Virus genome (UHGV): UHGV-0026213
Strand: one strand, 5' to 3'
Source of the DNA: a virus
DNA: 64,000 nt
This document shows positions 25,027 to 52,892 of this stretch, piece by piece. A model generated the notes under the pieces. The model saw only the letters and a program-made list of their open reading frames with translations. It was not told the DNA's origin and searched no databases. Every line of letters starts with the position of its first letter. Positions within the stretch are counted from its first letter, which is position 1. The position numbers were made by a program, and so were the translations under genes.

Positions 25027-25047
25027 TGCAGGTGACTCCGGTCGTTT

Positions 25048-26084: not shown

Positions 26085-26291
26085 TTACCTTCCCCCCGCA
26101 CCTTTACTACAGCTACCACTGCACGACCAGCTACATCCACCGTTACAGTTATAATGGCTTAAAGGTAAACCGGCAAGGTTGTTGGTTGAAGACACGGTGC
26201 CTTGGTTTGCAATATAGTTGTTTGCGTTAGCGGTCGTAATATACCCTTCCGCTGTTACTAACCGATCACGAAGGTTCTTAAGGCTAATCAC
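26085..26291 (-). CDS. Cys-rich precursor-like peptide C (short core)
   Basis: GGGAGG RBS 4 nt before GTG at about 26291; product (M)ISLKNLRDRLVTAEG...LSHYNCNGGCSWSCSGSCSKGAGGR. Leader and leader-core junction are conserved with peptides A and B. Confidence 0.55.
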   Translation of the reverse strand: MISLKNLRDRLVTAEGYITTANANNYIANQGTVSSTNNLAGLPLSHYNCNGGCSWSCSGSCSKGAGGR

Positions 26292-26293
26292 AA

Positions 26294-26692: not shown

Positions 26693-26702
26693 TTTTCACC
26701 TC

Positions 26703-27098: not shown

Positions 27099-27103
27099 CA
27101 CGT

Positions 27104-27165: not shown

Positions 27166-28371
27166 TTATTTCGTACCCGCTTCTGCCTGAACGTCATCAC
27201 GGGACGTCAAGTTAGCGTTAACGTGTACTGGAGCCTGAACCACACCACCGTATTTCTTGTGGAGATAGCCTGTGTGTGGGTTATCTGCCGCAATATGGTT
27301 TTGTAGGTTCTGATTCGCCTGACTGATTGCGTTCGTGTTATTCGCAACCTGTTGTTTAAGCGCATCCAGGTTTTGTTGCAGATTATCAATTTTCTGATCG
27401 GACTCATTACCCCGCTGTTCTAACGCAGCAATGCGCTGAATCGCTTGATTGAGTTTGGTGCTCAGATCGTTGATATTTTTCTGTAACTGTAACACTAGCG
27501 AATTTAGGTTCGCCAATGCCAATGCCATTTTCTGGTAGTTTTGGGCAACGATGTTAAGTTGGTCGTTCCACGCTTCCAAAGATTTGACAACAGCATCAAT
27601 ACGTTTTCCTAACGCTTCGTCTGCTTTCTTCAACGCATTAATATCAGTAATGGTTGCATCGATGGCAGACTGCACATCACGGATCAGTGCACGGATCTCC
27701 GTTTCTGTTAACCCGTTAACCTGGTGAATATCCAGATGGTGGACGTTACCCGTGGCGTTAATGTGCGCGTTCAGTGCGTCCAGGAAATCGTTTTTCAGGC
27801 TTTCGAGAATCGCTTTGATGTTCTCAAGCTGTACAGCATCGCCCGCCGTTATCGCATCTTTAATGCCAGCGAGCACTGTAATGATATATTCGAAGCCGTA
27901 AATATCACCGACGTCTTTATACGTCGGTGCCGACGGAAATGTATCAGGAACATTTCGCAAGTCTTTAAAGCCAACAGTTCGATTATCGAGATTCAACTCA
28001 GCAATCGCCTGTTCTATCGCGGGCACGTTTGCCGACTGCGGACCCCCGACTACTTGCGCCGATACCGTGATATCGGTCGGAATCGCGGTGTTCGTTACAA
28101 CAACCGCCATTACTACTTCCCGGTTCTTCGTCAATTTCTCGTAAGCCTGGTGTGCAAAAATCAACTCATAGTCCGTTCCGCGCTCATACGTCGCATCTGG
28201 GCGGTTGGCAACCCGCAAGCGAAACGTATCAGCATAAAACGGTCCATCAGGAAAAGCAAACGCACGGTTAACTTTACCTGTACCTAACGTAACCTGACGC
28301 TCCACGGCGTTAGAGGTTAGGGTTCCCGTTAAATCTAAAGGGTATTGGTATACAATGGAGGCCATGGCCAC
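27166..28371 (-). CDS. Tail fibre-like protein: N-terminal module shared with the three giant fibre genes plus long coiled coil
   Basis: N-terminal FPDGPFY...GTDYEL module; residues about 170-360 are heptad-rich helical sequence. Confidence 0.6.
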   Translation of the reverse strand: MAMASIVYQYPLDLTGTLTSNAVERQVTLGTGKVNRAFAFPDGPFYADTFRLRVANRPDATYERGTDYELIFAHQAYEKLTKNREVVMAVVVTNTAIPTDITVSAQVVGGPQSANVPAIEQAIAELNLDNRTVGFKDLRNVPDTFPSAPTYKDVGDIYGFEYIITVLAGIKDAITAGDAVQLENIKAILESLKNDFLDALNAHINATGNVHHLDIHQVNGLTETEIRALIRDVQSAIDATITDINALKKADEALGKRIDAVVKSLEAWNDQLNIVAQNYQKMALALANLNSLVLQLQKNINDLSTKLNQAIQRIAALEQRGNESDQKIDNLQQNLDALKQQVANNTNAISQANQNLQNHIAADNPHTGYLHKKYGGVVQAPVHVNANLTSRDDVQAEAGTK

Positions 28372-28405
28372 TCTCCTTAATCCGAGACGTCCTTGTCCCG
28401 TGGCG

Positions 28406-31400
28406 TTAAGATGTAAACATAAGATTGAACTGGAGCTTATCGATATCGCGCGTTTGTGCTGGGTTAACCGCGTCGTACGTGGTTGCCACGTAGACCGTTA
28501 ATGTCCCGTCAGCAAACGAAGTTTTCACCGGTGGCGTAGTCCCTGTCTGTCCATCAGTTACAATGACGACAGGTTGAGACGGGAGTTGATGGAACTGACC
28601 CTTAACCGCTTTATACACCAAACCAGATTGCGCTGCTAACTCCGTGTCGGTATAGACGATAAACGGCGTGTCGATATCTGTCTGTTTAATGACAGTGTTC
28701 GTCTCAACGTCAATCAGCTGAACAGCACCGAACTTCGTACGGTAGCTATCGTATTCATTTTTTGGAATGACAAACGTAGCATGTACACGGACTTCTTCGG
28801 CGGGCTTAAATCCGGCGTGTTCTTTTTCCAGATAGCTGTTAGCAGTTAACGTTACTGTCTGTTCAGTCATCGTACCACCAGACTGGTTTAACCCGTAACG
28901 AACTTGGGTTATACCTGTCGGAGCCGCAAGCCTGATTTTTAGTCTACGGTTAGCGGTACCAGGATCGCCTGGCACTCTAACACGCAGACTCATCGCCAGA
29001 TATGCTTTCGCACCGGTAGTCGGTTTCGTATACGCACCCAACCACTTCATATTCGCGGTTGCCGCTTGACTGTTCTCAGAAGCAGTAGCCGCTGCAACGT
29101 TCGCAGCAACCGCTTTCTGCCAGAACTGGTCAGCACAGTTCTCATACGCTACTCTACCGATACTTTTATAACCTGCGTAGGTTTCCTGTATCGGTAGCTT
29201 GGGTCGTGTTGTAACCCCGTTCAACGCATTCCATCTCTGACCATCGACATACCCTGCACCATTGCTCGCAGATGCCGTGGGGGCTTTCAGCGGTTGGTTA
29301 ACCAAGGTTTGGAGTGGACCCGTTTTTCGATCGTACGCCGCTGCAACGTCGTGCTGATCTCTAACGGCAGCGTGTTCTTCTAATTCACGAACCCTGCCTA
29401 GTCGTTTCACTTTATCGATGTTGATAGCAACTATGCGCTTTTTATCGGTTGTGACTGTACCAACAAATAATCGCGAAGTCGTATCAGGCAGCTTTTCCAG
29501 GCCGATCTGATATTGAGCTTTCGAACCTACAAGAGCAGCATGAACATAGAACGTCTGGTTAGCATGGTTTTCTGGGAATTCATTGCTTAAATCCACCGAC
29601 CACGTCGGTAATGTATAGCTATTACTACCGAAATCTAACCTGACCTCTTCCGTCAAGTATAGAATCCAACCTTCCGCGGTTTCCACGCCTGCGATAATAA
29701 CTGCCTGCCCCGCTGTTGAGAATGTGGTATCATTAACGAACTCTTCGACTGTGTATGCGTTACCTGAACAGAAAACGCGGTCAGCTTTAGAGAAAATTCG
29801 TGCCATCTTGTCCCAATTACCCGCACCCATGTAACAACCAGATTCTGGGTTGTGGGCAGGAGCCATCTGACGCAACTGTGACTTACCGGGAACGCGAGTC
29901 CAACCCGACCCTGGGTCGAAGGTGTACTTCGCAGCGTAACCCAAAGCATTTAGGTCCCCGATATTCCGTAATGTCAGCGTATAAGGTAGCCATAGACCGA
30001 AGTTTACACCGTCGGCAGAAGCAAAAATTGGCTGGCCTACACGTCGCGTTTTATTACCCGCTTCTTCCCTCAGAGACTGATTACTTAAGCCGTAATCAAG
30101 GTCTAAGAACCAATCTACCAGCTTAAAGGTTGCAGAGTTAAAACGTAGATAACCGTTTTCTTTAGTCGGACTCACCATGAAATAATAGATGTCGAGAACT
30201 CGACGTCCGTTACTCAAGATTTTCATGCATGAGACTTGTAATAAGTCGAACTCACAAACAGTGTTAATGCCTAGCAACCATAGCGCAAACAACGCGTTGC
30301 CGCTTTGGTGTGCTGCGCTGATGCGCTCGTTCGCGTAACCGTTTGCTTGGCCAGATGGTGCACCATCGACAATCATCCTAATCATTTTCTGGCGATCCGC
30401 TTCCTCTAACGTCAGCCGTTCTGATGACAGGGCAAAGTTACCGTAGATGTTCCGATATGGAAAGGTTTCCGCTTTCGTCAAATACCAACCATTTAACTGA
30501 CCGTGACGCTCCTCTGGAGTCATGCAAGCAGCCATACAGCTTAACTGTTCGTAAAGCGTCGGATCAACTTCTCGACGGTTGTTGTTCGGGCCATAACCGC
30601 CGTATCCCGGAACGTCATAAGGTTTACTTGGGTCAACTTCTACTTCGATCGTATAGCGGTTACGTGGATTGGATAGCCAAACCTTATTCGAACCACCAAT
30701 ACCGACAGGATGAGAAAGACCAATGGTATAGATAGAACCACGACCTTTATCCCAAGCAAATGATCCTTCACCTGAGGTATTGTTCGGGTTATCGTAACGC
30801 AAATAATCAAAAAGCTCTTTGCCTTGCGTCCCTTTAATAGTAACGCTTGGCATCTGGTCCGCATCGTTAATCTGCCAGCAGGAAAGCATCATTCCTGTGC
30901 CGTTGGGTTTAGCATACGTCGCAAAACAACGATTATTTGCTATACCGCCACCCCACTTACGACTGGTTTCTACAGTTGAGCCATCCGCGAACGATAGTCT
31001 GGTAGTATCAACTTTAAGTGGGAATCTCTCGGCACCCTCTAACGTAACTCTGCCCGTTAACGTATCGATTGTGAAACTTGTTGACCATTGACGGAAATTA
31101 ATCGTCGAACCGTCGGCTGCCGCAAACCACACGGTGGGTACATGGTTCACACGAATCACGCTGTCGCGGACCGCACAAGCATGGCTACACTCTGGACCGT
31201 GAACAAAGCTGTGACCGATTGTCCATTTAGCCCGTGCCTCTGGCGGGTAATACGTAAAGAACTGACCAGTCTGCGACTCTTCGGTCTTCTGACCAATTCG
31301 TAAACAGAGGTTATCTCCGAATTGCCCCATTTCTCCGGTTAGGGTTACACGTTCAAATTCTAACTCAGTATTGGTAGTCAAATCGGCTTTACGTAAACGC

Positions 31401-33589
31401 CATGCCGCCACGGCATAAGCAGCGTTATTTACCGTAGAACGAAGAAGATAAACGTGGTCGTCAACTAACACAACATCGTCAGCTTCTGGCCAAGGATTCC
31501 AGGTTTGTTCCACAGTACCGCTGGGGTTGCCATTACGGTATTTAGGCATTGTAACACGACATACCACCGTGTGTTTACTGTGGTCCATTGAACCATTGAA
31601 CAACACCAAATAACGGTTATTGTCAGAACCCAGACAAATAATCGCTTCCTGGCCACCGATCAAAATCGCTTTTAAGGTCACTCCAGGGTATTTACTCATC
31701 CCAACAGGATGGTATTTCACCGAAGTTTGCTGAGGGTTCACAAACGCATTCGACGTATTGATATCAGCATAACCGTAGTAAATCGCCTCTGTACCAGGCA
31801 CACCATTAGAAGCATTACGTAACGAATAAACTTTACCTTGCTGATAACCCACGACACCTTTCTGATAGGACTGGTTCTTTGTAAAGCCTGAATAATTACC
31901 GAGTGCCGGAATGGGTAAGAAGTTTTTGTTACCGAACTTCGCCCCACCGACAGTCCACGCAGGTAAGATGGTATTCAGTTTATCGGAAACCTTCTTGATC
32001 TCTTTTGCGAACAACCACCCTTGACGCGACGTGACAGCTTTGTCGTTCGTGGCATCAATCGCATCCCACAGCTGTAAGATACCATCCACGGTCGCACTAC
32101 CAATCGGGACATTATCCAAATCGGCGGTAGTGTGCGTGTGCTCCTTCACACTTTTATTTTTCAGCACATTCGCTAACGCTTTTGTTACCGGTTTAGCGAT
32201 CGGCATGGTGTTATCCATCTTATCGATACCGAAATCGGTTTTCGTTAAGGTTAACACCATTTTATCGCCCGTCTTAACAAACCCTTTACCGTTAACCGTG
32301 TAGTCATCGTCAACGTACAGGTCCAAGCGGTCTTTTAATTCGGTCACCGCCTTTTGGGAAATAGCAGTGCCTAGTGCTACGGAGGTTGCGATATTCGTAA
32401 TCGAAAACACCCCATAAACCGACTCAGTTGCTGTGGGAATATTCGCGTTCAACGTTAGCGGATTAGACTGCTTCGCTGTACCGTATGGTTTTACGGTGTC
32501 TGATGGTTTGAAATAGGCATTTGCTTCAAGTAACGTTACAGACGTCAGGTACATGTTCACCATTTCTGGTGTAACCAAATACACAGAGTTGTAAACCGGC
32601 GCTAATACATCCTGTTCTGTCCCAGAGTGTACCCAAAGCGTATTCAGTCCCGCACTAAATTCAACCGCCAAACCCGATTCGTTGTTGTCCTGGTCTGCTT
32701 TAATCACCAACGGTTGTGGTGAGGTAATTAACCACTTATCACCACGGATGCTGATAATGTGTCCGCCTGCTGTTTTAAACGTCAGTTCGTTACCGTTCGT
32801 GCTACCCCAACGACCGTAAACGGTACCAAGGGCTTCACCCATTAACTGATCAACGTCTGATTGCTCAATACCCGCCGAACCCATCAGCGTAGCCAATTCG
32901 TCAATCGTCAGTCCAAACGCTTTTGTAGCGTCGACAGCACGTCCCAAAACCGGAAGGGCACCAACATCAGTGGTCGTATACTGGTGTGCGTTAGGATTAA
33001 GGTGGTGTTGGTATAACTCCTCGTCGAAAACCTTTTTACCGTTCTCGTAAATCAGGTTAGTGACTTCGGTAAACGCTGCATCTAACTCTGTTGAACGTTG
33101 AATGATTTTCTTACGGATGTCGTTTAACGCTTTAACAACCTCATCCCTCAGAATAGCTTCTTCTAAGTTAGCAGGAGGATCGATGGGTTGAATAACTGGC
33201 GCATACGCCATTAACTCTGACCAGTCCACGTTACGTGGGTCTTTCAGGTCAGTACGAACTAAGAACTTTCCGATTTCAGATTGTGGTACACGATACTGGC
33301 GTGCTACCCCTAAAATCTCATATTCTATTTCTGTTGCGGTCAGCAACATGAACCCGCCGTAAATCTGATCTTGCTCAGCTTCTGCGAGTTCTTTAAAGTA
33401 ATAGCCTAAATAGTAGTCCAACCCCTCAATCAGAGTACGACGTCCGTTAGGCGCGGTATCGTCGGCTACTGTGAGTTTTAATCCGATACGATAAAAAGGT
33501 CCTTCGGGCGGAATGACCACATTAAATCGGTTAGGGTACGTCGCTGTGCTTAACGTACCGTTAAACTGCGCCGCGTCTTCTCTCGGCAT
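28406..33589 (-). CDS. Giant tail fibre or tailspike-like structural protein (1727 aa)
   Basis: N-terminal PPEGPFY...GLDYYL module shared with neighbours; AGGAG RBS. Confidence 0.65.
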   Translation of the reverse strand: MPREDAAQFNGTLSTATYPNRFNVVIPPEGPFYRIGLKLTVADDTAPNGRRTLIEGLDYYLGYYFKELAEAEQDQIYGGFMLLTATEIEYEILGVARQYRVPQSEIGKFLVRTDLKDPRNVDWSELMAYAPVIQPIDPPANLEEAILRDEVVKALNDIRKKIIQRSTELDAAFTEVTNLIYENGKKVFDEELYQHHLNPNAHQYTTTDVGALPVLGRAVDATKAFGLTIDELATLMGSAGIEQSDVDQLMGEALGTVYGRWGSTNGNELTFKTAGGHIISIRGDKWLITSPQPLVIKADQDNNESGLAVEFSAGLNTLWVHSGTEQDVLAPVYNSVYLVTPEMVNMYLTSVTLLEANAYFKPSDTVKPYGTAKQSNPLTLNANIPTATESVYGVFSITNIATSVALGTAISQKAVTELKDRLDLYVDDDYTVNGKGFVKTGDKMVLTLTKTDFGIDKMDNTMPIAKPVTKALANVLKNKSVKEHTHTTADLDNVPIGSATVDGILQLWDAIDATNDKAVTSRQGWLFAKEIKKVSDKLNTILPAWTVGGAKFGNKNFLPIPALGNYSGFTKNQSYQKGVVGYQQGKVYSLRNASNGVPGTEAIYYGYADINTSNAFVNPQQTSVKYHPVGMSKYPGVTLKAILIGGQEAIICLGSDNNRYLVLFNGSMDHSKHTVVCRVTMPKYRNGNPSGTVEQTWNPWPEADDVVLVDDHVYLLRSTVNNAAYAVAAWRLRKADLTTNTELEFERVTLTGEMGQFGDNLCLRIGQKTEESQTGQFFTYYPPEARAKWTIGHSFVHGPECSHACAVRDSVIRVNHVPTVWFAAADGSTINFRQWSTSFTIDTLTGRVTLEGAERFPLKVDTTRLSFADGSTVETSRKWGGGIANNRCFATYAKPNGTGMMLSCWQINDADQMPSVTIKGTQGKELFDYLRYDNPNNTSGEGSFAWDKGRGSIYTIGLSHPVGIGGSNKVWLSNPRNRYTIEVEVDPSKPYDVPGYGGYGPNNNRREVDPTLYEQLSCMAACMTPEERHGQLNGWYLTKAETFPYRNIYGNFALSSERLTLEEADRQKMIRMIVDGAPSGQANGYANERISAAHQSGNALFALWLLGINTVCEFDLLQVSCMKILSNGRRVLDIYYFMVSPTKENGYLRFNSATFKLVDWFLDLDYGLSNQSLREEAGNKTRRVGQPIFASADGVNFGLWLPYTLTLRNIGDLNALGYAAKYTFDPGSGWTRVPGKSQLRQMAPAHNPESGCYMGAGNWDKMARIFSKADRVFCSGNAYTVEEFVNDTTFSTAGQAVIIAGVETAEGWILYLTEEVRLDFGSNSYTLPTWSVDLSNEFPENHANQTFYVHAALVGSKAQYQIGLEKLPDTTSRLFVGTVTTDKKRIVAINIDKVKRLGRVRELEEHAAVRDQHDVAAAYDRKTGPLQTLVNQPLKAPTASASNGAGYVDGQRWNALNGVTTRPKLPIQETYAGYKSIGRVAYENCADQFWQKAVAANVAAATASENSQAATANMKWLGAYTKPTTGAKAYLAMSLRVRVPGDPGTANRRLKIRLAAPTGITQVRYGLNQSGGTMTEQTVTLTANSYLEKEHAGFKPAEEVRVHATFVIPKNEYDSYRTKFGAVQLIDVETNTVIKQTDIDTPFIVYTDTELAAQSGLVYKAVKGQFHQLPSQPVVIVTDGQTGTTPPVKTSFADGTLTVYVATTYDAVNPAQTRDIDKLQFNLMFTS

Positions 33590-33604
33590 CGTAAAGACTC
33601 CTAC

Positions 33605-33645
33605 TTTTAAATAAAATGGATACCCCTCCCCGTTACAGGGAGGGG
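33605..33645 (-). terminator. Minus-strand terminator between the 1402-aa and 1727-aa genes
   Basis: cccctccc-cgttaca-gggagggg hairpin with T-rich sequence on the minus-strand 3' side; a second hairpin at about 33649-33674. Confidence 0.6.
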
Positions 33646-33683
33646 TTACCTACGGACACACAACTGCCCGTAGGCAGCCTGTC

Positions 33684-36600
33684 CTAAGTACGATCCCCTA
33701 ACTGCTTCCCGTTAAGTTCTCGTTTCAGTACAGCCAAAATCCACTTCCACGCTTTACTCGTGATGTGGTACGGATTGCGTTTCTCCATTAAGAACTGACT
33801 TTCGCCGCTACGGAGTTCGAAGCTCTGCGCATTGAGTTGGTCTTGGCGAACACCGTTCTCGTCAGTGACATCTAACGAACAGGTAAAGTTAAGCTCGTAG
33901 CCTTCAGGATTATTACCCGGTGGTTCTAAGACAATATAAATATCCTGCCCTACACGTAGATCCTTTGGCGTAAGGGTAACTGCTTTACCTGTGTCGGCGC
34001 TGGTCGAAAGCGCAAACGGCACGCTATCAATAGCTGATACATACGCGTCCTTCCCAGCATCGCCGATAATCACCTTACCCGGCCAGTTACACTTCACCGT
34101 TCCTGTCACTTTTGCAATACGGTACTGCTGTTTATCAGTACCTTGTGCAAAGCGTAAAATGAGTTTATGCCGATACCGGTTTGCGGCAGCTTTGGATGTA
34201 CTCCACTCATTGTTCCAGGAGGTATGAAGTTCACCTTTCTTGGCCATCAAAGCACCACGAGACAGCTTACGTGGGAAGAATTGTGCCGGAAGTTGCCCAT
34301 CGTGGGAGATCGCTACACTCCCTTGTCCGGTTGGAAGTGCTATTGTTTCCGTAGGGCAATAATTTAACTCACTCACGTATGATGTAGGATCGATCAATTT
34401 CTGATAGTAATCACCGTCCTTACTGTCCGCTAACCAACCAACGGAAGAGTCCGTATACGATTCAAACAGTGAACGTAAATAGTGATACTTATCGATATCG
34501 ATGTTACCCGTTTTTGGATCGATCAGAGCATGGTTAATAGTGAGGAAACACTTCTCACTCAAACCATTAAACGCCAAACCCACACCGTCACCAGTAAAAT
34601 AGTCTACCAGGTCAAATGGAAGCGTCATTTCTATTTGTCGCAAGTTGATAGTCGTTGAACCAAACTGCGAAAAAGATAGCGCTAAACGAAGTACACGAGT
34701 ATTAACATTATAACGATAACGTATCATCCCACGCGGCGCGTGGTTCGCGGAGATCTTATCACCGTTTGCGCCCCACCCAATTAAATCGAGTATTTCAGCG
34801 TTTGTTACTTCACCGTTAAACAAAACGTCTTTAGTCGTGATTTCAACTGACGTTTCCCTTCCGGCATCCATTAACATCGAACCGTTATTCAACTCGAAGC
34901 TCTTGTGCCAAACTTCTGAAGTCGAGCCAGCACCTACACCCACCTTACAAGTTTTACTAGTAAGGTTAATACGCACATAACGGCGTCCCACTGTACCGCC
35001 CTGCGAGCTTGCACACAAAATAAGATCAGGTGCCGCAGACAGTGCCTTGGTCCCTGCAATGTCATCAACATCGAAAACGAATGAGCCTTCGAACGTTGGT
35101 GCGTTATTTTCCTTCGGGTTAAATGGTGTAAACCAACAATAAGGCATCGCGCCCTCGGTTGAGAAAATCAACTCTAAGTCAGATTTAACATTTAATCCGT
35201 GGGAATAAGAAAAAAGACCGCGACTTAAGGTACAAAGCGTACCACCACTTCCAGCACCTAACAATTTTCGATATATTAAGGCACGGGGTTCTGGGATAGC
35301 ACGGTTTAATAACGGCAACCGTGGGTTATCCGTTAACGTCCAATCTACAGAACTGAGTCCGTGTGCCTTACGAGTGCTAATGTGCTCACTAACCTCGGCA
35401 CTTTTCCCGAAATCAAATGTGGTTTCAAAACTCACGGTTTTATTCGAGTAGGATTCACCACCTGCAACAATATCAACGTAACCGATATAACCGCGCTCAG
35501 GATCGACTGCAATACTCTGAATTGGCTCAGTACGCGAATACAGAGAGCCTGTGAGCATGTTAACGTACAGATAATGACGAATCCCTACGTGTGTTGTAAC
35601 AAACTCTTGGAGAAGCTCTACGTGCGTTTCAGGCCCACTGAAATAAACGGGGTAGTCACCGTCGTAAATTTCGAATTGCACCGCTGCGGATTTAGCCGTG
35701 TCGCTACACTCAGCTTTAACCGCTACGGTGTAGTTTTCAACGTCCGCTGATGTTTCGTACACTGCAACGAGCGGAGACTGGCCTGTGGCTGCCTGGATAC
35801 CGTTAATGTAAACTGTAACCGGGCCACCCCCTGCGGCATAAACCCAAAGCTTCGGCTGGCGTGCCCTTACCCGCGTTTTTGCCAACACAGTAACAACTGA
35901 CTGGTCGCCCATCTGTGAGGCGGTTTTACCTACCGGAACAGATTGGAAACCCATTAGTGGTGGTTCTTCAATACCTGTCCAGTTAATGCCCTTACCAGCG
36001 CTCACTTTCCCCGTAGGCCAGGTCGTCTCAATTTGGTTGTTCGGTGAGAACCAGTTAAACATCGGCGTAGTTTGCAGGTCAATCGAACCTGTAACGGCGC
36101 TATCAGCTTTCGCGCCGTTCAGCAAATAGAAATACTTCAAATCTTGGACGGAGATTGCCGTACCCTGACTATTAAAGCGCCAGTCTGCGCCTTTTACCGC
36201 AGCGAAATCCGTTACCGACCCTTCTTTCGCGTTTGCAATCGCCGCAGCAACCACATCTAAACGCGCCGAAAGTTCTTTTAAGACGTTCGGCACCACTGCA
36301 CGGTTTTCAACCAAACCGTTCTGGTTAGTTGCGTAACGACCGATACCGTAAACGGTTTGCGAGGCTTTATAAATGCCTAGTTCCGACCAATCGTGGTGGT
36401 GACCTGCATCCGCTAAACCACTAAGCGCCGTATTTAACTCGGTAGACAACGGCTTGTCAACGTCTGCGGTGTTATCCGCTTGCCCTAACCCCAGATCAGC
36501 TTTCGTGATTGTCCTGGAGCCGTCATTCATCGGCTTACCGTTAATCATGGTCGTTTTAGCCACATACCCCGATAGGTCAGTTGAGTATGGTGCTAACGAA

Positions 36601-37892
36601 GCCGGTGTTGCAGCAACCCCAGTCGTTTCTGTACCTTTACCTGTTTTAAGTTTAGCGACGCCTTTTTCGGCGGTTGTCGCTTTTGTTGGGTCGATAGTCC
36701 CCACGATAGGGTCGGCGCGAGAACCTTTACCGGTAAAGCTAATCCCATTACGACCTTCAATGTACACCTTCGAGTCATCAGGGTCGCCACCGCCACCAGA
36801 ACCCGCATCTGGATCTTGTTGGTATTCCATCAACGCCGTGGTAGTCAGTAACGGGTTACCGTTCAGGGTGAGTTTGTTCATCCCTAAAGCATCGCCTGTT
36901 GACTCGATGCGTAATGTGTTTTTACCGGCACGCCAGTTGATATAACGTCCTGCACCCGTACCTTCCAGATGCCCTACCGCTAATACCACAGAACCGTTGG
37001 ATTTTAACGTAAAACCATCGTTGGCAAAAATGATTTCGGACTCACCGTTTTTCGAACGGAACTGTGCGCGGTTTCCTGACACCGTACAGTTAAACACGCC
37101 CCGCACTTCCGAAGAAATCCAGTGAGAGATATACGTATCGATAACCGACTGCGGTAAACGAAACGCTTTCAGCTCATCCGTCAGTGCTTTCAACTTTAAC
37201 CCGTACGCCATAAAGGTGTCGGGTGTTTTCAAGTTAACAGGATGCGCGTTAATCTGCGCGGATGTGGTTTCGTGCGGGTTCTTCGCTGCGATATGTGCTG
37301 GGTAATTAAATGCTTCGATTTCTTTACCCAACGCAGTCACTAACGCTTTAACTTCAGCTAATTTGTCTTTAATTAGCTGGTTAGCGTCGTCGGTTTTCAA
37401 TTCAATATCGTGAACTGCCGACGCTAAATATTTTTTGTTCAGCAAATCCGCCCAGGACGTTGCTGCTGGCGTCGCTGGATATAACGATGGTCTACCGTCT
37501 AATAACAGCCAGTCAGCACTGACTGGGTTATTCAAATATTTCACCAGTTCATCGAGAATATCAACAAACGGGTCGTAGAACGTACCGCCGAGCATTTGTC
37601 CTTCAAAGGTTACGATACCCTTGATGGATGGGTTGATAAGGTGTACCCCACAATACACGTTGGCTGCTACCGAGTCATCCAGTTCCGTCAGCTGATATTG
37701 CAGTTCGTAGTCCACCCCACGACTCAGTGGGGTGGTTGAACCTGGTTGTCTGACGACCAAATCTTCAAAGAACGGGCGGTGGTCTAAAATCACCACCCGA
37801 TCGTTGTTGTTCTCTGACCCGATGATACGCTCCTCTAAGAAGTGATTCTCGGCTTTCGTCCCCCGAGGATCGTAAGGATACGCTTTCATCAA
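33684..37892 (-). CDS. Giant tail fibre or tailspike-like structural protein (1402 aa)
   Basis: N-terminal HRPFF...GVDYELQY module. Confidence 0.65.
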   Translation of the reverse strand: MMKAYPYDPRGTKAENHFLEERIIGSENNNDRVVILDHRPFFEDLVVRQPGSTTPLSRGVDYELQYQLTELDDSVAANVYCGVHLINPSIKGIVTFEGQMLGGTFYDPFVDILDELVKYLNNPVSADWLLLDGRPSLYPATPAATSWADLLNKKYLASAVHDIELKTDDANQLIKDKLAEVKALVTALGKEIEAFNYPAHIAAKNPHETTSAQINAHPVNLKTPDTFMAYGLKLKALTDELKAFRLPQSVIDTYISHWISSEVRGVFNCTVSGNRAQFRSKNGESEIIFANDGFTLKSNGSVVLAVGHLEGTGAGRYINWRAGKNTLRIESTGDALGMNKLTLNGNPLLTTTALMEYQQDPDAGSGGGGDPDDSKVYIEGRNGISFTGKGSRADPIVGTIDPTKATTAEKGVAKLKTGKGTETTGVAATPASLAPYSTDLSGYVAKTTMINGKPMNDGSRTITKADLGLGQADNTADVDKPLSTELNTALSGLADAGHHHDWSELGIYKASQTVYGIGRYATNQNGLVENRAVVPNVLKELSARLDVVAAAIANAKEGSVTDFAAVKGADWRFNSQGTAISVQDLKYFYLLNGAKADSAVTGSIDLQTTPMFNWFSPNNQIETTWPTGKVSAGKGINWTGIEEPPLMGFQSVPVGKTASQMGDQSVVTVLAKTRVRARQPKLWVYAAGGGPVTVYINGIQAATGQSPLVAVYETSADVENYTVAVKAECSDTAKSAAVQFEIYDGDYPVYFSGPETHVELLQEFVTTHVGIRHYLYVNMLTGSLYSRTEPIQSIAVDPERGYIGYVDIVAGGESYSNKTVSFETTFDFGKSAEVSEHISTRKAHGLSSVDWTLTDNPRLPLLNRAIPEPRALIYRKLLGAGSGGTLCTLSRGLFSYSHGLNVKSDLELIFSTEGAMPYCWFTPFNPKENNAPTFEGSFVFDVDDIAGTKALSAAPDLILCASSQGGTVGRRYVRINLTSKTCKVGVGAGSTSEVWHKSFELNNGSMLMDAGRETSVEITTKDVLFNGEVTNAEILDLIGWGANGDKISANHAPRGMIRYRYNVNTRVLRLALSFSQFGSTTINLRQIEMTLPFDLVDYFTGDGVGLAFNGLSEKCFLTINHALIDPKTGNIDIDKYHYLRSLFESYTDSSVGWLADSKDGDYYQKLIDPTSYVSELNYCPTETIALPTGQGSVAISHDGQLPAQFFPRKLSRGALMAKKGELHTSWNNEWSTSKAAANRYRHKLILRFAQGTDKQQYRIAKVTGTVKCNWPGKVIIGDAGKDAYVSAIDSVPFALSTSADTGKAVTLTPKDLRVGQDIYIVLEPPGNNPEGYELNFTCSLDVTDENGVRQDQLNAQSFELRSGESQFLMEKRNPYHITSKAWKWILAVLKRELNGKQLGDRT

Positions 37893-37902
37893 AAAATTCT
37901 CC

Positions 37903-40900
37903 TTAATCGCGAATGATTACCGCCTGCACTTTATTGTTGGTGTCGATAAACGACATTACGCGCTCCTTGTTAAGATAAGGAGGTATCGGTAACGCAGCGT
38001 AATCCACCAGGTTGTTATTAAATTCAGTTGCCACTAACGCATTAAGCGTTTCGGGGTCTGAACTGACACCGGTCAATTCCATAACGCGCACACGATTTAA
38101 TGAGGAATAGTTGCTAATATAGTCTAACAACGTACCATAGACTTTATTCGCGGTTGCGCTATCTGCCGTAGAACGGATGTTGGCACGAACTTCATCCTCA
38201 TAAAGTCCCCCTAAACCGTAGTAAATAGGGGTATACGGATCGTTAACGATAGGTTCGATATTGAACCCTGTTAAACGGTCGGTTAATGGGATTTTCTGCG
38301 TAGTTCCCCCTGCCGCCGTACAACTTACATATTTGTCCGTCGCAGATAAATGCACCGCGACAGTATACGTAGTCCCCGCTAAGGTCAGTCTTGCACTAAA
38401 CGTTATTGCGTTGGTTGCACTACGGTTGTGGGTAAACGATACTTCAGGTTGTAATGAACTCCACGGTGCTGGCGTGACACGTTTCGTTGGTGTGAAACCC
38501 ACCACTACCGATTTCCCGCTACCGAAGTTCAAACCGAACCCTGCGTAACAATATTCACCGTTACTGTCGGTTAAACGATACCCGCGAGTGATAAGTAACG
38601 ACAACCGCATAAACTCGCCGTCGGTGTTTTTCCAACAACCTAAAACAGTTTCTAACACCGTGCCGGTTTTTGCGTTGCTTTCTGTTTCCCAACTGACTCG
38701 CATTCCTGCGTTCTTAAAAGCTGGGAACATGTTGTGGATAAACCCGTGTAGGTTATCGCTTACCCCTTTCGCGTCAAAAATCCACTTGGATGCGAGCTGG
38801 TCGTATTTCACCCCGTCTAAAGCTTTATACTGCCCACCGGCAACATAACGCCAATCTGCTTCACCGCGTACTACTGCCTGGAGTCCAGAAGCCCAGCAAG
38901 GCGCACCTACTGTTAAGTTAGCTAACCCAAGCGCTGCACGTGACGCGGAGCGCTGAATGTGTGCGTTGTCATCGGCTTTATGATCTTTCAGTTCACGGAA
39001 ATCGCCCAACCGTGTGACATTACGCATCTCCGTAACGAACACCTCAGAAATGTCGTTAACACCAATCAACCCTACACGCGTCATGGTATCCGTTTCAGCC
39101 TGACTGTAGCTGTCGTGGACAATATACTTCGCTTTGTTGTCAACAATATCAACAAAAATCCCTGCGTAGATTTCTGTATTCAATTTCGGAAAACGTTCAC
39201 TGACGTTAATCGTCATCAACGGAACGTCGTATGTTTCACCACCGATAAAATACGTTGAAGCTGGAAGCGTGACCAGAATTTTGTCTTTGACCGTAAGGTC
39301 TATTAAGTCGTTACCAGACTCACCAAAACGTATAATGTCAAGACGTGCCTCCGAGTCAACACCGCTGACAGCGCGCTCCAATTTTTCAATCTGGGATGTC
39401 TGCGCCATTACCACACTCCCATCGAGTGCTAAAGTCACATCATCCACATCCAGACCAAATTTAATCAGACCACGTTGCGCTGTGGTTGCGTTCCCTGTAC
39501 CAAAAGCGGTAAACGGGTGTTGGTGAACTTTAGGCGAGTATTTATCTAACTCCGCACGCTGTGCTGTAGAAATCGGTAAATCGGCATCGGGCGTATTCGC
39601 AACATTACCTAAACCAAAGGTAATCTTATCGATAGTAACCGAGCTGGTAAGTTGCATGTCGTTAATGTACGATTTAACTGCAACTAACTTACCGGTGAAC
39701 TCCGCATCGAGTTTTTCAATCAGTGCTGGCGTTGCTGCAAGGTTTTCAGCGGTACCGAACTCATCGGTCAACTGCCAAGCTGCCAGAGCTGTTGTATCGG
39801 TCGCGGTAGGAAGAATAAAGGTCGCTACGAACGGCGAGGCTTTTATCCCGCTACCGGTGATCGTAACCGTTGTTGTCGAACTTGCGTAGAATAAACCTGT
39901 GCCACCTGCGGTATTGCCTGGCAGATACGGGGCTACGGTGGTGGGGTCTAAGAGTTTTTTACCACGCCACAACAATCCTCGGTCATCGGGGTATAGCACA
40001 AGCTGGTTAGTACCTGCTTGGAACGTTACGGGGTTGTTACCCACGTTAACATCAGTTGAACCTTGGCCAATAAACTTGATGGATTTCGGATCAACAACAA
40101 ACTGGGCACCTAAACGTGTCTCGTCAACAACATCCGGTGCTTTCTTAATGGTAACCGTGTTACCTTTGTTTTGCGAACTAATGGTAACGGCGTCGGCAAC
40201 ATTATTGATCAGCGATTTAAAGTGGTGCTGATTCTCTAATGCTTCTAACGCAGCGTCCATGTTATCGAAGTTAATCCGACCGCTATACGTTTTACCGTTT
40301 ACGGTAATAACGACGTCAAACACGTTCCCTGTACGCTTCAGTTGAAAACGTAGCGTAAAATCCCCATCCGGTATTGCCGGATTAGGAGCTTGAGAAATAT
40401 AACGTACCGACGGTAACGGACTCCCGTAACCGTTCAATGTCAGACTGATAGTAAGGGTACCACCCCAGATTTGACCAGTAATCTCTACGAACTTACCGGA
40501 GTTACTACCCGGGTTTTCGTAGAAACGTAAACCAACCCTACCGACCGCTTCATTACCAGACGCTGTTTTACGTCCAGTAACAATAAAGTCAATATCTTGC
40601 AGGTTGGCAGGCACTGCATTAAAGTTAGCAATGAAACCGCTTTTCGCTCCTGTATAACGAAGCGCGCCGTGATATCTGTGACCACTACTAACATAGCTTT
40701 CGCTAAAATAAGGACTCACGTATTTCGACATCGAGACCGGATCAACTTCCGTCGTGAACGAAGTAAAACCCGGAAGTGTGGTAATCGTGCCGTTAACGTT
40801 CTTGCTCGGCGATTCACGAAGCAGTTTTTTCTGTGCGGTTAACGTTGCTTGTGTTGGGTACTTAGCATTAACATAATCCGTTAACTGCTGTTTCGTCTTC

Positions 40901-42225
40901 CCGTAAGCTAACGCGGCATCTGTCGCAATACCATTCAGCTCTAACGCACGGATCGGACCCCACGTATCGGTGTGCGGGTTGTCCTTACGTGTAACGTGTT
41001 CGTGTGCAGGCGCGTTACGATACAGCTGCTCAACTAACTGATGGTATTTGACTATTAACTGGTAAACATCGTTATCGATGTCAGGTTCTGGTGCGCCGGG
41101 TAAAGAACGAATTTGAATATAATCGTTTTCGGCCGCATACCAGTTTAAATTAATGTTCGTTTTAAACTTCAACCATTTAGCAACATCCGTTTTCGAATAC
41201 CCTGCCGAGAACTCATCAGGCGGCGTATCGACATTGAATGTGTAATCCATGGTCTGTTTATTTGTTTTTACTACGATGACGTAAACACCGTTTCCGGGTT
41301 GACGGGTTACACTAAAATCGATATCGTTTTTTAACTCATCGTCAGTTAAACCGTTGATTAACGTATAATCGTAGTTTGTTGAACCGCTACCAATAGCGAC
41401 CGTTAAGACCAGTGAGATTTTGCGCTGTTTTAGCTGCAGCCGTAGAATACTTGCACCGCCGTTAGCATAACAGAGCATCCAATCGATCTGTTCGTTTGGA
41501 TTCAATTTCGTCATGTCTGGCAGAATAGCAGGAATTATGTGTTTCACTGACAGGGCGTAGTCGTTAAAGGTTGCAGTTTTATAACTCAAGCTATAACGAT
41601 GACGGGCAGTGTTGTAGGTGAAGCCACCTTTATTGTCGTATACGGCATACTGCTCGGAAGTGATAACCTTGCTATTAGCACGGTATTCTAAATCCAGGGT
41701 ATTGCGTGCGATGGGGTTAAGCCGACTCACGACTTCCCCTAACGAATCGCCTAATCCAGCAATAGCCTGCATTAATTCCAGTTCACCTTTCCAATTCTCC
41801 CAATCGAACTGAATATCGACCGGCGGAAAGTAAACGTCCCCGATGACGGTGTCCCACTGACACGCAGACGGGTATTTATCTTTATTGAGTTCGCGTTCTG
41901 CGCTAATCTGTTGTTGGGTAGCCTGACCACAACCAACGGCGTGGTAATCTACCGTAAAATTCGATTTGTATTTGTCATTAACAATCCAAATCATCCCGTG
42001 AATGAGATAGGCTGTGCGCAACATACCGGTCTCGTACGGGTGTGTAATAACGTAATCGTCGCCTAAGGTCAGTGTTTTGCCGCCGCTCTTGACCACCAGG
42101 GATGTGGTGAAAAAAGGGGCGTGGGCAGGTACCAACATTCGGTATTTCGTACCAATGACGGCGACCGCTTCACCGGTTATTTTATTCCCCGGTTTTTTGA
42201 AGTGTGGGTCTAAGACGACAGCCAT
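37903..42225 (-). CDS. Giant tail fibre or tailspike-like structural protein (1440 aa)
   Basis: N-terminal HAPFF...GDDYVI module; first gene of the minus-strand structural operon. Confidence 0.65.
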   Translation of the reverse strand: MAVVLDPHFKKPGNKITGEAVAVIGTKYRMLVPAHAPFFTTSLVVKSGGKTLTLGDDYVITHPYETGMLRTAYLIHGMIWIVNDKYKSNFTVDYHAVGCGQATQQQISAERELNKDKYPSACQWDTVIGDVYFPPVDIQFDWENWKGELELMQAIAGLGDSLGEVVSRLNPIARNTLDLEYRANSKVITSEQYAVYDNKGGFTYNTARHRYSLSYKTATFNDYALSVKHIIPAILPDMTKLNPNEQIDWMLCYANGGASILRLQLKQRKISLVLTVAIGSGSTNYDYTLINGLTDDELKNDIDFSVTRQPGNGVYVIVVKTNKQTMDYTFNVDTPPDEFSAGYSKTDVAKWLKFKTNINLNWYAAENDYIQIRSLPGAPEPDIDNDVYQLIVKYHQLVEQLYRNAPAHEHVTRKDNPHTDTWGPIRALELNGIATDAALAYGKTKQQLTDYVNAKYPTQATLTAQKKLLRESPSKNVNGTITTLPGFTSFTTEVDPVSMSKYVSPYFSESYVSSGHRYHGALRYTGAKSGFIANFNAVPANLQDIDFIVTGRKTASGNEAVGRVGLRFYENPGSNSGKFVEITGQIWGGTLTISLTLNGYGSPLPSVRYISQAPNPAIPDGDFTLRFQLKRTGNVFDVVITVNGKTYSGRINFDNMDAALEALENQHHFKSLINNVADAVTISSQNKGNTVTIKKAPDVVDETRLGAQFVVDPKSIKFIGQGSTDVNVGNNPVTFQAGTNQLVLYPDDRGLLWRGKKLLDPTTVAPYLPGNTAGGTGLFYASSTTTVTITGSGIKASPFVATFILPTATDTTALAAWQLTDEFGTAENLAATPALIEKLDAEFTGKLVAVKSYINDMQLTSSVTIDKITFGLGNVANTPDADLPISTAQRAELDKYSPKVHQHPFTAFGTGNATTAQRGLIKFGLDVDDVTLALDGSVVMAQTSQIEKLERAVSGVDSEARLDIIRFGESGNDLIDLTVKDKILVTLPASTYFIGGETYDVPLMTINVSERFPKLNTEIYAGIFVDIVDNKAKYIVHDSYSQAETDTMTRVGLIGVNDISEVFVTEMRNVTRLGDFRELKDHKADDNAHIQRSASRAALGLANLTVGAPCWASGLQAVVRGEADWRYVAGGQYKALDGVKYDQLASKWIFDAKGVSDNLHGFIHNMFPAFKNAGMRVSWETESNAKTGTVLETVLGCWKNTDGEFMRLSLLITRGYRLTDSNGEYCYAGFGLNFGSGKSVVVGFTPTKRVTPAPWSSLQPEVSFTHNRSATNAITFSARLTLAGTTYTVAVHLSATDKYVSCTAAGGTTQKIPLTDRLTGFNIEPIVNDPYTPIYYGLGGLYEDEVRANIRSTADSATANKVYGTLLDYISNYSSLNRVRVMELTGVSSDPETLNALVATEFNNNLVDYAALPIPPYLNKERVMSFIDTNNKVQAVIIRD

Positions 42226-52887: not shown

Positions 52888-52892
52888 CGTTT

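What the first reader, a model, noticed from the sequence alone, without database searches (positions are those of the whole stretch)
27166..42225. Four consecutive fibre or spike genes sharing an N-terminal module
The 1440-, 1402-, 1727- and 401-aa proteins all begin with a related ~60-aa region (P..(G)PF(F/Y) ... G.DY(E/Y)(L/I)), then diverge completely. A shared docking module with divergent distal domains is the pattern in phages that carry several receptor-binding proteins on one baseplate. With the plus-strand long fibre, adhesin pair and esterase, this window encodes at least six or seven host-recognition proteins.
Basis: partly seen in the sequence, partly recalled or inferred. Interest (0 to 1): 0.55.

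Follow-up and report, generated by a model that had tools for sequence, protein, structure and literature searches.

The report
Jumbo-phage baseplate fibre paralogs
These four neighbouring genes are this giant phage's copy of an already described family of tail-fibre proteins (phiKZ gp131-135, SPN3US gp167-170) that share an N-terminal anchor for the outer baseplate. The finding is real but largely ordinary.

Summary
Four consecutive minus-strand genes (A 37903-42225, B 33684-37892, C 28406-33589, D 27166-28371) share an N-terminal module well above chance. The module is about 200-220 aa, not about 60. A, B and C also share further internal modules, so they do not "diverge completely".

The window comes from an SPN3US-like jumbo phage. 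The genes are syntenic orthologues of SPN3US gp170/169/168/167. All four SPN3US proteins are found in virions by mass spectrometry, and gp168-170 are assigned to the tail.

The module is homologous to the N-terminal domain of phiKZ gp131/133/134/135. A 2026 cryo-EM study fits six such domains per fibre base, beneath gp130. A gp130 homologue lies divergently next to A.

Two points are new here. D is a fourth family member. The family also splits into two old subtypes: A, B and C are type 1 (gp131-like) and D is type 2 (gp133-135-like). All 13 jumbo phages sampled carry at least one of each subtype, never more than three of one subtype, and never both expanded. This fits a trimer-plus-trimer anchor better than four independently docking receptor-binding proteins.

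A, B and C evolve fastest at their distal ends, and C contains a beta-propeller. D is uniformly conserved and mostly coiled coil.

Verdict: a new member of a known kind, of modest interest.

The parts
37903..42225 (-). Gene A (1440 aa), type-1 fibre paralogue, orthologue of SPN3US gp170 and Asesino gp190.
   Evidence: ORF. phrog_7557 E=0. Synteny. Type-1 HMM 91.6 bits against 72.8 for type 2. Identity to orthologues falls from 73-80% at the N-terminus to 25-37% at the C-terminus.
33684..37892 (-). Gene B (1402 aa; probably 1401 aa from the ATG at 37889), type-1 fibre paralogue, orthologue of SPN3US gp169 and Asesino gp189.
   Evidence: ORF. phrog_8078 E=0. Type-1 HMM 85.1 bits against 65.0. 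Colinear with C over aa 32-520. Identity gradient from 70-74% down to about 30-40%.
28406..33589 (-). Gene C (1727 aa), type-1 fibre paralogue, orthologue of SPN3US gp168 and Asesino gp188.
   Evidence: ORF. phrog_7449 E=0. Type-1 HMM 92.5 bits against 24.8. SPN3US gp168 is a tail protein likened to phiKZ gp131. The distal 1200 aa have only 20 database homologues, all orthologues of the same kind.
27166..28371 (-). Gene D (401 aa; probably 399 aa from the ATG at 28365), type-2 paralogue, orthologue of SPN3US gp167 and Asesino gp187. It groups with phiKZ gp133-135 and Goslar gp25.
   Evidence: ORF. phrog_2163 1.6e-103. 77.6% identical to SPN3US gp167. Type-2 HMM 158.6 bits against 73.2. Uniform identity of about 78% along its length.
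41566..42225 (-). N-terminal anchor module of A (aa 1-220).
37233..37892 (-). N-terminal anchor module of B (aa 1-220).
32930..33589 (-). N-terminal anchor module of C (aa 1-220).
27712..28371 (-). N-terminal anchor module of D (aa 1-220): a beta-sandwich at aa 10-110, the FPS/FPP motif and helices at 158-205.
   Evidence: AlphaFold2 model with pLDDT above 90 for aa 10-110..
27289..27705 (-). D coiled-coil rod (aa 223-361), a single helix of about 140 residues.
   Evidence: AlphaFold2 helix 223-361 with pLDDT 85-94. Only sub-threshold hits to coiled-coil Pfam families.
39469..40029 (-). Module M in A (aa 733-919), shared with B 318-516 and C 313-511. It contains a fibre-type ...D.P.S...H.H motif.
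   Evidence: hhalign E = 7e-9 (A-B) and 3.7e-5 (A-C). PHROG 'tail fiber' and 'minor tail protein' hits in this stretch.
36345..36941 (-). Module M in B (aa 318-516).
32057..32653 (-). Module M in C (aa 313-511).
30749..31891 (-). Predicted beta-propeller domain of C (about aa 567-947).
40111..40758 (-). Beta-rich domain of about 200 aa inserted in A (about aa 490-705), absent from SPN3US gp170 and Asesino gp190.
   Evidence: Gap in the orthologue alignment. No paralogue in the window. Only two partial hits among 5.8 billion proteins.
42294..43556 (+). Homologue of phiKZ gp130 (SPN3US gp171, Goslar gp30), divergently transcribed next to A. It is the likely docking partner of the fibres.
   Evidence: BLASTP 3e-13 to KTN4_165 (phiKZ gp130) and 2e-21 to Goslar gp30, both over the full length. 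phrog_3337. phiKZ fibres attach beneath gp130. SPN3US gp171 is an essential tail protein.
33622..33646 (-). Conserved terminator-like hairpin (11-bp GC-rich stem followed by a T-run) in the B-C intergenic spacer.
   Evidence: It is conserved with compensatory stem changes in SPN3US, Asesino and a close relative.

Best explanation
The four genes encode the peripheral-baseplate fibre set of an SPN3US-like (phiKZ-related) jumbo phage. They belong to the phiKZ gp131-gp135 paralogue family, which in SPN3US is 'paralog family C' (gp168-170) plus gp167.

The shared N-terminal module of about 200 aa (beta-sandwich, W..P..FPP motif, helical hairpin) is the anchor. It fixes the proteins to the outer baseplate beneath the gp130 homologue, which is encoded divergently next door.

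The module exists in two ancient subtypes. A, B and C are type 1 (gp131-like). They are giant proteins whose distal, fast-evolving beta-domains (a beta-propeller in C) most likely contact the host surface. D is type 2 (gp133-135 / Goslar gp25-like). It is short, uniformly conserved and mostly coiled coil, and most likely a structural partner rather than a receptor binder.

The most likely assembly is joint, not independent. Each fibre base would combine three type-1 and three type-2 N-domains around a helical bundle, as proposed for phiKZ (gp131 x3 + gp133 + gp134 + gp135). Here the numbers are mirrored: D x3 plus A, B and C.

Shown: homology, synteny, the subtype split, the conservation gradient and the fold classes. 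Inferred: docking under gp130, the 3+3 stoichiometry and receptor binding by the distal domains.
For: Family membership:
- A profile built only from the four window N-termini hits phiKZ gp131 (8.8e-27), gp135 (3.9e-22), gp134 (3e-17), gp133 (4.4e-11), Goslar gp25 (2e-38) and Goslar gp29 (3.3e-24).
- The block is syntenic with SPN3US gp170-167 and Asesino gp190-187.
- All 256 database homologues carry the domain at the extreme N-terminus.

Virion and tail location of the orthologues:
- SPN3US gp167-170 are all detected by mass spectrometry, with spectral counts per kDa of 1.90, 1.08, 1.41 and 1.00. The portal (12 copies) gives 0.93-1.29 and gp171 gives 0.74.
- gp168-170 are absent from a tailless mutant.

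Anchor role:
- The phiKZ cryo-EM atlas places six gp131-like N-domains and a six-helix bundle at each of 12 attachment sites under gp130.
- The gp130 homologue is adjacent and divergent in the window, as it is next to the first fibre gene in SPN3US, phiKZ, PhiPA3 and Goslar.

Two subtypes:
- HMMs trained without any SPN3US-like sequence classify A, B and C as type 1 and D as type 2. Clustering of 274 N-domains gives the two big clades, with D in type 2 and A and C in type 1; B falls out as a separate small cluster.
- In the fibre loci of 13 phages the type-1: type-2 counts are 3:1 in five, 1:1 in five, 1:2 in one and 1:3 in two. There is always at least one of each, never more than three of a type, and never both expanded.

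Non-redundancy: phiKZ gp131-135 all lack transposon insertions.

Host-contact role of A, B and C: identity to orthologues falls from 70-86% at the N-terminus to 15-40% at the C-terminus. Against a relative that is about 90% identical overall, it falls from 97-100% to 66-83%. C has a confident propeller domain.

D: its uniform conservation and 140-residue helix are.
Against: - Nothing was measured on this phage. Virion location and stoichiometry are borrowed from SPN3US and phiKZ.
- The phiKZ hetero-hexamer is itself called a 'candidate' model by its authors. It rests on rigid-body fits of AlphaFold3 models into maps of about 4.4-4.6 A, shown low-pass filtered to 6 A.
- The spectral-count ratio of gp167 to gp168-170 is about 1.5-2.4, not 3. 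It does not exclude 1:1:1:1.
- A is not colinear with B and C: its collar and M module are shifted by about 200-400 aa. That is awkward for a heterotrimeric shaft.
- B's subtype margin is modest (20 bits), and B was an outlier in the clustering.
- Paralogue counts cover only 14-20 kb either side of the hit, not whole genomes.
- The N-domain fold search found no significant PDB match; the best E-value was 0.02.
Confidence: 0.7

Rival explanations
1. A, B, C and D are four independent homotrimeric receptor-binding fibres or spikes. Each uses the same N-terminal plug to occupy its own socket on the baseplate, so the phage has a multi-receptor, multi-host repertoire, as in Ackermannviridae TSP1-4 or phage phiK64-1.
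For: - The proteins share an N-terminus and have divergent distal parts.
- A, B and C differ in length and in module order, which suits separate homotrimers.
- Many family members in other phages end in a Peptidase_S74 intramolecular chaperone, a hallmark of homotrimeric fibres (the Goslar gp25 annotation).
- The module contains a degenerate version of the trimeric fibre repeat W..I.GKP..FPP..H.H.
- The roughly equal abundance of SPN3US gp168-170 also fits equal numbers of homotrimers.
Against: - D has essentially no distal domain.
- The two module subtypes always co-occur, and only one of them is ever expanded.
- phiKZ density shows six N-domains per site, not three.
- All phiKZ paralogues appear essential on a single host. 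Accessory RBPs are usually dispensable; that generalisation is from my own knowledge.
- No T4 gp10-like branching domain or depolymerase beta-helix was detected.
Confidence: 0.2
2. The proteins are architectural parts of the enlarged jumbo-phage baseplate (struts or braces) and play no direct part in receptor recognition. The true receptor binders would be the T-even-type long fibre and Gp38 adhesins at the left end of the window.
For: - The window carries a complete-looking Gp37-like fibre with Gp34_trimer and S74 domains, plus two Gp38-type adhesins that are 76-80% identical to RB49-group adhesins.
- No carbohydrate-binding or enzymatic family was detected by sequence in A, B or C.
- The literature calls the phiKZ set a 'paralogous baseplate protein family'.
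Against: - The steep N-to-C conservation gradient, seen even between phages that are about 90% identical, is what host-interacting tips show. Scaffold proteins do not.
- The phiKZ atlas assigns the homologues to the twelve flexible fibres and places the gp131 propeller at the distal tip.
- Family members elsewhere carry fibre-type S74 chaperones.
- No megablast match to the Gp37/Gp38 cassette was seen among the listed jumbo-phage records. SPN3US itself was not checked specifically.
Confidence: 0.08
3. The N-terminal resemblance is a compositional or chance artefact.
For: The A-B and A-D pairs are weak by BLASTP alone (E = 0.22 and none).
Against: - Shuffle z-scores are 3.6-16.7.
- Leave-one-out HMMs recover each paralogue.
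- External profiles recover all four: phrog_2163 and the type-1/type-2 HMMs trained without these sequences.
Confidence: 0.01

Closest known systems
phiKZ gp131, gp133, gp134, gp135 (paralogous peripheral-baseplate fibre proteins; Sycheva 2012, known to me only as cited; structural atlas PMC13250141)
   Same: - The N-terminal domain is homologous.
- The genes are tandem and follow a divergent gp130 gene.
- The distal parts are unrelated to one another.
- Both sets contain type-1 and type-2 subtypes.
- A beta-propeller lies in the distal part of a type-1 member: phiKZ gp131 (4GBF) and C here.
   Different: - The numbers are mirrored. phiKZ has one type-1 gene (gp131, 771 aa) and three type-2 genes of about 460 aa. 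This window has three giant type-1 genes (1402-1727 aa) and one short type-2 gene.
- Beyond the N-domain there is no detectable sequence homology to gp131.
- No gp132-like short ORF is present.
Salmonella phage SPN3US gp167-gp170 ('paralog family C' = gp168, gp169, gp170; Thomas et al. 2016, Ali et al. 2017)
   Same: These are direct syntenic orthologues: D 78%, A 46%, B 48% and C 48% identical over the window protein, gaps counted. Gene order, flanking gp171 and radical-SAM genes are the same.
   Different: - The authors list only gp168-170 as paralogues. Here the gp167 orthologue is shown to carry the same module.
- A has an extra domain of about 200 aa.
- The distal thirds are only 15-40% identical.
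- The host is probably E. coli or a close relative, not Salmonella. This is inferred from the RB49-like Gp38 and from the E. coli source labels of two near hits.
Goslar gp29 and gp25 (E. coli chimallivirus; bioRxiv 10.64898/2026.04.21.720040)
   Same: The N-domain is homologous. gp29 is type 1 and lies next to the divergent gp30 (gp130-like). gp25 is type 2. Both are found in virions and are suggested to be peripheral baseplate or fibre components.
   Different: Goslar has the minimal 1:1 set. Its type-2 protein ends in a Peptidase_S74 chaperone, which D lacks. The Goslar peripheral baseplate was not resolved.
Branched multi-RBP systems with a shared N-terminal adaptor (Ackermannviridae CBA120 TSP1-4; Klebsiella phages phiK64-1 and RaK2) - compared from my own knowledge
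   Same: Several long, distally divergent virion proteins are encoded in tandem and share conserved N-terminal attachment regions.
   Different: No T4 gp10-like (XD) branching domains or beta-helix depolymerase domains were detected. The paralogues here look obligatory and co-assembling rather than optional add-ons.
T7 gp17-type fibre N-terminal anchor domain
   Same: Six of the eight best Foldseek hits for D's model are N-terminal fibre or tail attachment chains of podophage tail complexes (7boz_c, 7ey9_b/c, 8ck1_B, 7y22_e, 9efk_AE, 8i4m_M).
   Different: None is significant (E = 0.02-0.15, TM <= 0.39). This is a lead only.

Membership tests
phiKZ gp131-like paralogous fibre/baseplate family (SPN3US paralog family C; PHROG 2163) | An N-terminal domain of about 200 aa homologous to gp131-N, gp133-N, gp134-N and gp135-N. 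| tested here: met
   HMM built from the four window N-termini against phiKZ/KTN4 proteins: 8.8e-27, 4.4e-11, 3e-17 and 3.9e-22. hhalign of A and C against gp131: 4.3e-7 and 1.5e-5. phrog_2163 hits all four.
phiKZ gp131-like paralogous fibre/baseplate family | The domain sits at the extreme N-terminus, followed by unrelated distal regions. | tested here: met
   Domain positions in the window ORFs. 256 of 256 database homologues start the domain within the first 25 residues. The C-terminal controls show no similarity.
phiKZ gp131-like paralogous fibre/baseplate family | Tandem paralogues next to a divergently transcribed gp130 homologue. | tested here: met
   Window ORF 42294-43556(+) against phiKZ gp130 3e-13 and Goslar gp30 2e-21. 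The same layout is annotated in SPN3US, phiKZ/KTN4, PhiPA3 and Goslar. A similar-sized divergent ORF sits in that position in pVp-JHP1101, Xoo-sp14 and Eowyn, but its homology was not tested.
phiKZ gp131-like paralogous fibre/baseplate family | The proteins are present in the virion tail or at the baseplate periphery. | not testable with these tools
   Known only for orthologues: SPN3US gp167-170 by mass spectrometry, with gp168-170 absent from a tailless mutant, and phiKZ by cryo-EM and immunogold.
phiKZ gp131-like paralogous fibre/baseplate family | Six N-domains and a six-helix bundle per fibre base (hetero-hexamer). | not testable with these tools
   No multimer prediction or map was available. 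Indirect support comes from the two subtypes always co-occurring, with at most three copies of one. B, C and D also have a helical segment of roughly equal length (about 50-60 residues) between the FPP and NPH motifs.
Trimeric phage tail fibres with Phage_fiber_2 / HxH repeats and a Peptidase_S74 intramolecular chaperone | Pfam PF03406 and/or PF13884 reach their thresholds. | tested here: not met
   Pfam found no family for A, B or C, and only sub-threshold coiled-coil hits for D. Related proteins in other phages do carry PF13884. A degenerate W..P..FPP motif aligns to the fibre repeat of 9d93 and the R2-pyocin fibre.
Branched multi-tailspike adaptors (T4 gp10-like XD domains, Ackermannviridae type) | N-terminal gp10-like domains and beta-helix depolymerase bodies. 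| tested here: not met
   No such Pfam or PHROG hit. The modelled N-domain is a small beta-sandwich followed by helices. The distal part of C is a propeller plus beta-sandwiches. The folds of A and B were not modelled.
Glycoside-hydrolase or lectin beta-propellers (GH43/62/32/130, sialidase, AAL lectin) | A propeller fold together with family-specific catalytic or binding residues. | tested here: inconclusive

The most novel reading that the evidence does not exclude
The paralogue arithmetic (1:1, 1:2, 1:3 or 3:1, never both subtypes expanded, never more than three) reflects a conserved trimer-plus-trimer anchor in which each of the three positions of one trimer can be taken over by its own gene.

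In SPN3US-type phages this would mean that A, B and C form a heterotrimeric anchor together with a D homotrimer. Every one of the roughly 12 fibre bases would then carry three different giant, largely monomeric arms (A, B and C) at once: a three-in-one fibre, rather than three kinds of fibre.

This predicts 12:12:12:36 copies, and loss of the whole complex when any one gene is removed.
Probability: 0.3. Interest if true: 0.55.

Novelty: new member of a known kind. Interest (0 to 1): 0.3.

Why it matters
It places this phage's largest structural gene block (15 kb) in a family for which a structural framework now exists. It also marks the distal parts of A, B and C as the stretches to swap or mutate when studying host range.

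The one point beyond the literature is the two-subtype rule with mirrored expansions. It gives a concrete, testable prediction for how chimallivirus fibres are built (a type-1 trimer plus a type-2 trimer). It also offers an independent comparative check on the still tentative phiKZ hetero-hexamer model.

Otherwise the finding is expected for a phiKZ/SPN3US-like phage.

Tried and rejected
- Pfam on all four proteins gave nothing for A, B and C, and only sub-threshold coiled-coil noise for D.
- PDB sequence searches with three-orthologue profiles of A, B and C gave no hit at E <= 0.1.
- The D profile against PDB hit only the short fibre-repeat motif.
- Foldseek of the D model against PDB gave no significant match. 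The copy of the PDB searched by sequence holds only the C-terminal domain of gp131 (4GBF), which suggests the true homologue was not available to be found.
- hhalign of A and C against full-length gp131 showed only the N-domain to be homologous. There is no sequence link between C's propeller and gp131's.
- DNA repeats between the four genes that might indicate cassette switching or recombination: none.
- Sigma-70 promoter scan: fewer hits than in shuffles and not informative for this kind of phage.
- The profile search of 1.84 billion representatives picked up collar (NPH) repeats as well as the N-domain, because the profile grew to 544 positions. Its counts (9527 at E <= 1e-3) overstate the N-domain family, so I used only the retrieved sequences.
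- Origin of the insertion in A: only two partial hits, so no origin could be assigned.
- Several fetched loci did not reach the Python sandbox. I worked around this through alignment files.
- Sycheva 2012 could not be read.

Full report
**What is there**

Four co-directional minus-strand ORFs occupy 27166-42225:
- A, 37903-42225, 1440 aa
- B, 33684-37892, 1402 aa
- C, 28406-33589, 1727 aa
- D, 27166-28371, 401 aa

Each is preceded by a GGAG-type ribosome-binding site, and the gaps between them are 10, 94 and 34 nt. RBS spacing and the orthologue N-termini suggest that B really starts at the ATG at 37889 and D at the ATG at 28365. That would make them 1401 and 399 aa (inference).

**Is the N-terminal similarity real?**

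Yes.
G-D-Y is invariant in the four-way alignment.
- Smith-Waterman scores of the first 220 aa exceed 500 shuffles for all six pairs (z = 3.6-16.7). The last 220 aa give z between -1.2 and 1.1.
- Leave-one-out HMMs built from three paralogues find the fourth as the best non-training hit among 260 window ORFs (E = 1.4e-3 for A, 5e-11 for B, 1.3e-6 for C, 2e-9 for D). No other ORF in the 64-kb window has the module.
- The independent profile phrog_2163 hits all four N-termini.

Two parts of the description need correcting.
- The module is about 200-220 aa, not about 60.
- The proteins do not diverge completely afterwards. B and C are colinear to about residue 520 (hhalign E = 5.5e-18). An M module is shared by A 733-919, B 318-516 and C 313-511. 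A 966-1091 matches C 1289-1415.

**Where the window comes from**

The block is syntenic with Salmonella phage SPN3US gp170-gp167 and Erwinia phage Asesino gp190-gp187. The synteny includes the flanking divergent gene on one side and a radical-SAM pair on the other. D is 77.6% identical to SPN3US gp167. At the DNA level only fragments match deposited phages, so this is an undeposited SPN3US-like jumbo phage. A Logan-assembled contig carries the same four genes at about 86-92% protein identity.

**What is already known about the family**

- SPN3US gp168, gp169 and gp170 were described as 'paralog family C'. They are virion proteins, are missing from a tailless mutant, and were likened to phiKZ gp131 (PMC5105663, PMC5694885, PMC10052503).
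- gp167 is also in the virion but was not listed as a paralogue.
- The phiKZ structural atlas (PMC13250141) reports twelve fibre-attachment sites beneath gp130. [quoted passage not shown] The authors interpret this as a candidate hetero-hexamer of gp131 x3 + gp133 + gp134 + gp135.
- A phiKZ transposon screen found no insertions in any of gp131-135 (PMC12676376).
- In Goslar, gp25 and gp29 are in the virion, but the peripheral baseplate was not resolved.

**Membership**

- A profile made only from the four window N-termini hits phiKZ gp131, gp135, gp134 and gp133 (8.8e-27 to 4.4e-11) and Goslar gp25 and gp29 (2e-38, 3.3e-24).
- The window ORF at 42294-43556(+), divergent from A, is a full-length homologue of phiKZ gp130 (3e-13) and Goslar gp30 (2e-21). 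So the likely docking partner is encoded next door, as in the other phages.

**Anatomy**

D:
- AlphaFold2 on D with 75 aligned sequences gives a mean pLDDT of 79.
- It predicts a confident beta-sandwich (aa 10-110), a poorly defined linker carrying the FPS/FPP motif, two helices (158-205), an NPH collar, and then one 140-residue helix (223-361).
- The W..P..FPP stretch is a degenerate copy of the common trimeric-fibre repeat.
- Foldseek finds no significant PDB match. The best, weak hits are T7 gp17-type fibre anchors.
- The searched PDB copy holds only the C-terminal domain of gp131.

C:
- The distal 1200 aa have only 20 homologues in 5.8 billion proteins, all orthologues.
- The AlphaFold2 model (pLDDT 73) is a string of beta domains.
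- There is no sequence-level link to the gp131 propeller.

A, B and C by sequence:
- Pfam and PDB sequence searches give nothing for A, B or C.
- A carries an inserted beta-rich domain of about 200 aa. It is absent from SPN3US and Asesino and almost unique in the databases.

**Evolutionary pattern**

- Identity to the SPN3US and Asesino orthologues falls from 70-86% in the first 100 aa to 15-40% in the last few hundred for A, B and C. D stays at about 78% throughout.
- The gradient persists against the close relative: 97-100% at the N-terminus and 66-83% distally.
- This is what is expected if the N-terminus contacts conserved virion parts and the distal ends of A, B and C contact the host. 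D behaves as a structural element.

**Two subtypes**

- Clustering 274 N-domains gives two large clades. One contains D, phiKZ gp133-135 and Goslar gp25. The other contains A, C, phiKZ gp131 and Goslar gp29. B is an outlier.
- HMMs trained on each clade without any SPN3US-like sequence score as follows (type 1 / type 2 bits): A 91.6/72.8, B 85.1/65.0, C 92.5/24.8, D 73.2/158.6.
- Counting type 1 : type 2 in the fibre loci of 13 phages gives:
  - 3:1 in this window, its close relative, SPN3US, Asesino and Vibrio pVp-JHP1101
  - 1:1 in Goslar, PCH45, Xoo-sp14, Bacillus AgentSmith and Eowyn
  - 1:2 in RAY
  - 1:3 in phiKZ and PhiPA3
- Both types are always present, only one is ever expanded, and never beyond three.
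- That is what a type-1 trimer plus type-2 trimer anchor would produce. It mirrors the phiKZ proposal, and in this phage the expanded side is the other one.
- SPN3US spectral counts per kDa fit roughly equimolar A, B and C near 12-18 copies, with more D: gp167 1.90; gp168-170 1.0-1.4; portal (12 copies) 0.93-1.29; gp171 0.74. They cannot separate the stoichiometric models.

**Interpretation**

The surrounding window does hold further host-recognition genes:
- a T-even-type long fibre with Gp34_trimer and S74 domains
- two Gp38-type adhesins
- a SASA esterase
- DUF7941 proteins

The picture of four independent RBPs is less likely than co-assembly. D is not RBP-like. No depolymerase or lyase fold was found. 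The 859-aa ORF is SbcC-like.

What remains unresolved is whether A, B and C form one heterotrimer per site or separate homotrimers. The non-colinearity of A with B and C argues against a heterotrimeric shaft. The globular, monomer-foldable distal domains of C and the three-paralogue ceiling argue for three separate arms on a mixed anchor.

**Verdict**

It belongs to a family already described in SPN3US and phiKZ. Two things are new: recognising the gp167-type protein as a member, and the mirrored two-subtype pattern. Novelty is 'new member of a known kind', and interest is modest.

Noticed in passing
window 22797-27101 (minus strand), immediately downstream of D: Two tandem 132-aa ORFs (26703-27101 and 26294-26692) end in about 80 aa of (C-x-x-x)n Cys/Gly/Ser repeats. 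One touches the cut-off of NCBIfam TIGR04114, 'Cys-rich repeat' rSAM target. They are followed by a phrog_8030 protein and two radical-SAM enzymes. The 440-aa enzyme matches the 'CXXX-repeat target' peptide maturase TIGR04115 (6.5e-33, below the curated cut-off) and the PapB ranthipeptide maturase. Together this looks like a phage-encoded RiPP-like precursor and maturase cassette. The radical-SAM pair is syntenic in SPN3US (gp163/164), Asesino and the close relative, while the small ORFs between it and D differ among them. SPN3US gp163-166 do not appear in the virion mass-spectrometry supplementary tables searched. A search combining 'radical SAM', 'SPN3US' and 'cysteine-rich' turned up no paper on it. 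It may merit its own analysis.
   Followed up: partly
window 2-5677 (plus strand): A T-even-type distal long-tail-fibre gene runs off the left end of the window and is at least 1395 aa. It has Phage_fiber_2, Gp34_trimer and Peptidase_S74 domains. It is followed by a full Gp38 adhesin (4375-5157; 76-80% identical to RB49/JSE-group Gp38) and a second Gp38_N-type adhesin (5174-5677). GC content is 0.48 here against 0.40-0.44 nearby. This looks like a horizontally acquired fibre and adhesin cassette in a jumbo phage, and it points to an E. coli-like host.
   Followed up: partly
window 6745-8736 (plus strand): A 663-aa protein with a SASA carbohydrate-esterase domain and DUF6645.
   Followed up: partly
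window 5761-6291, 16406-17254 and 17268-17744 (plus strand): Likely DUF7941 paralogues; Pfam DUF7941 hits the first two, and the third matches only the same PHROGs (1037, 2935). DUF7941 is the family of Goslar gp22 and gp23, proposed to form a 'fiber cloud' on the peripheral baseplate.
   Followed up: no
window 33590-33683 (B-C intergenic spacer), hairpin at 33622-33646 (minus strand): The B-C spacer holds a GC-rich 11-bp hairpin followed by a T-run, conserved with compensatory stem changes in SPN3US, Asesino and the close relative. Reading the alignment, a second conserved GGAC...GTCC hairpin appears to lie just upstream of it. This looks like an intrinsic terminator or attenuator that splits the block into A-B and C-D units.
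   Followed up: partly
window 40111-40758 (A, about aa 490-705): A beta-rich domain inserted in A that SPN3US gp170 and Asesino gp190 lack. Only two partial database hits exist, from Proteus mirabilis and E. coli assemblies.
   Followed up: partly
window 52891-55470 (plus strand): The 859-aa ORF is SbcC/SMC-like (phrog_77 4.2e-92; sub-threshold SMC_N match). It is not a host-recognition protein.
   Followed up: yes
window 17806-19178 (plus strand): An endolysin-like ORF (phrog_315) and a 'tail assembly chaperone' ORF (phrog_1158) sit between the DUF7941 genes and the radical-SAM block.
   Followed up: no
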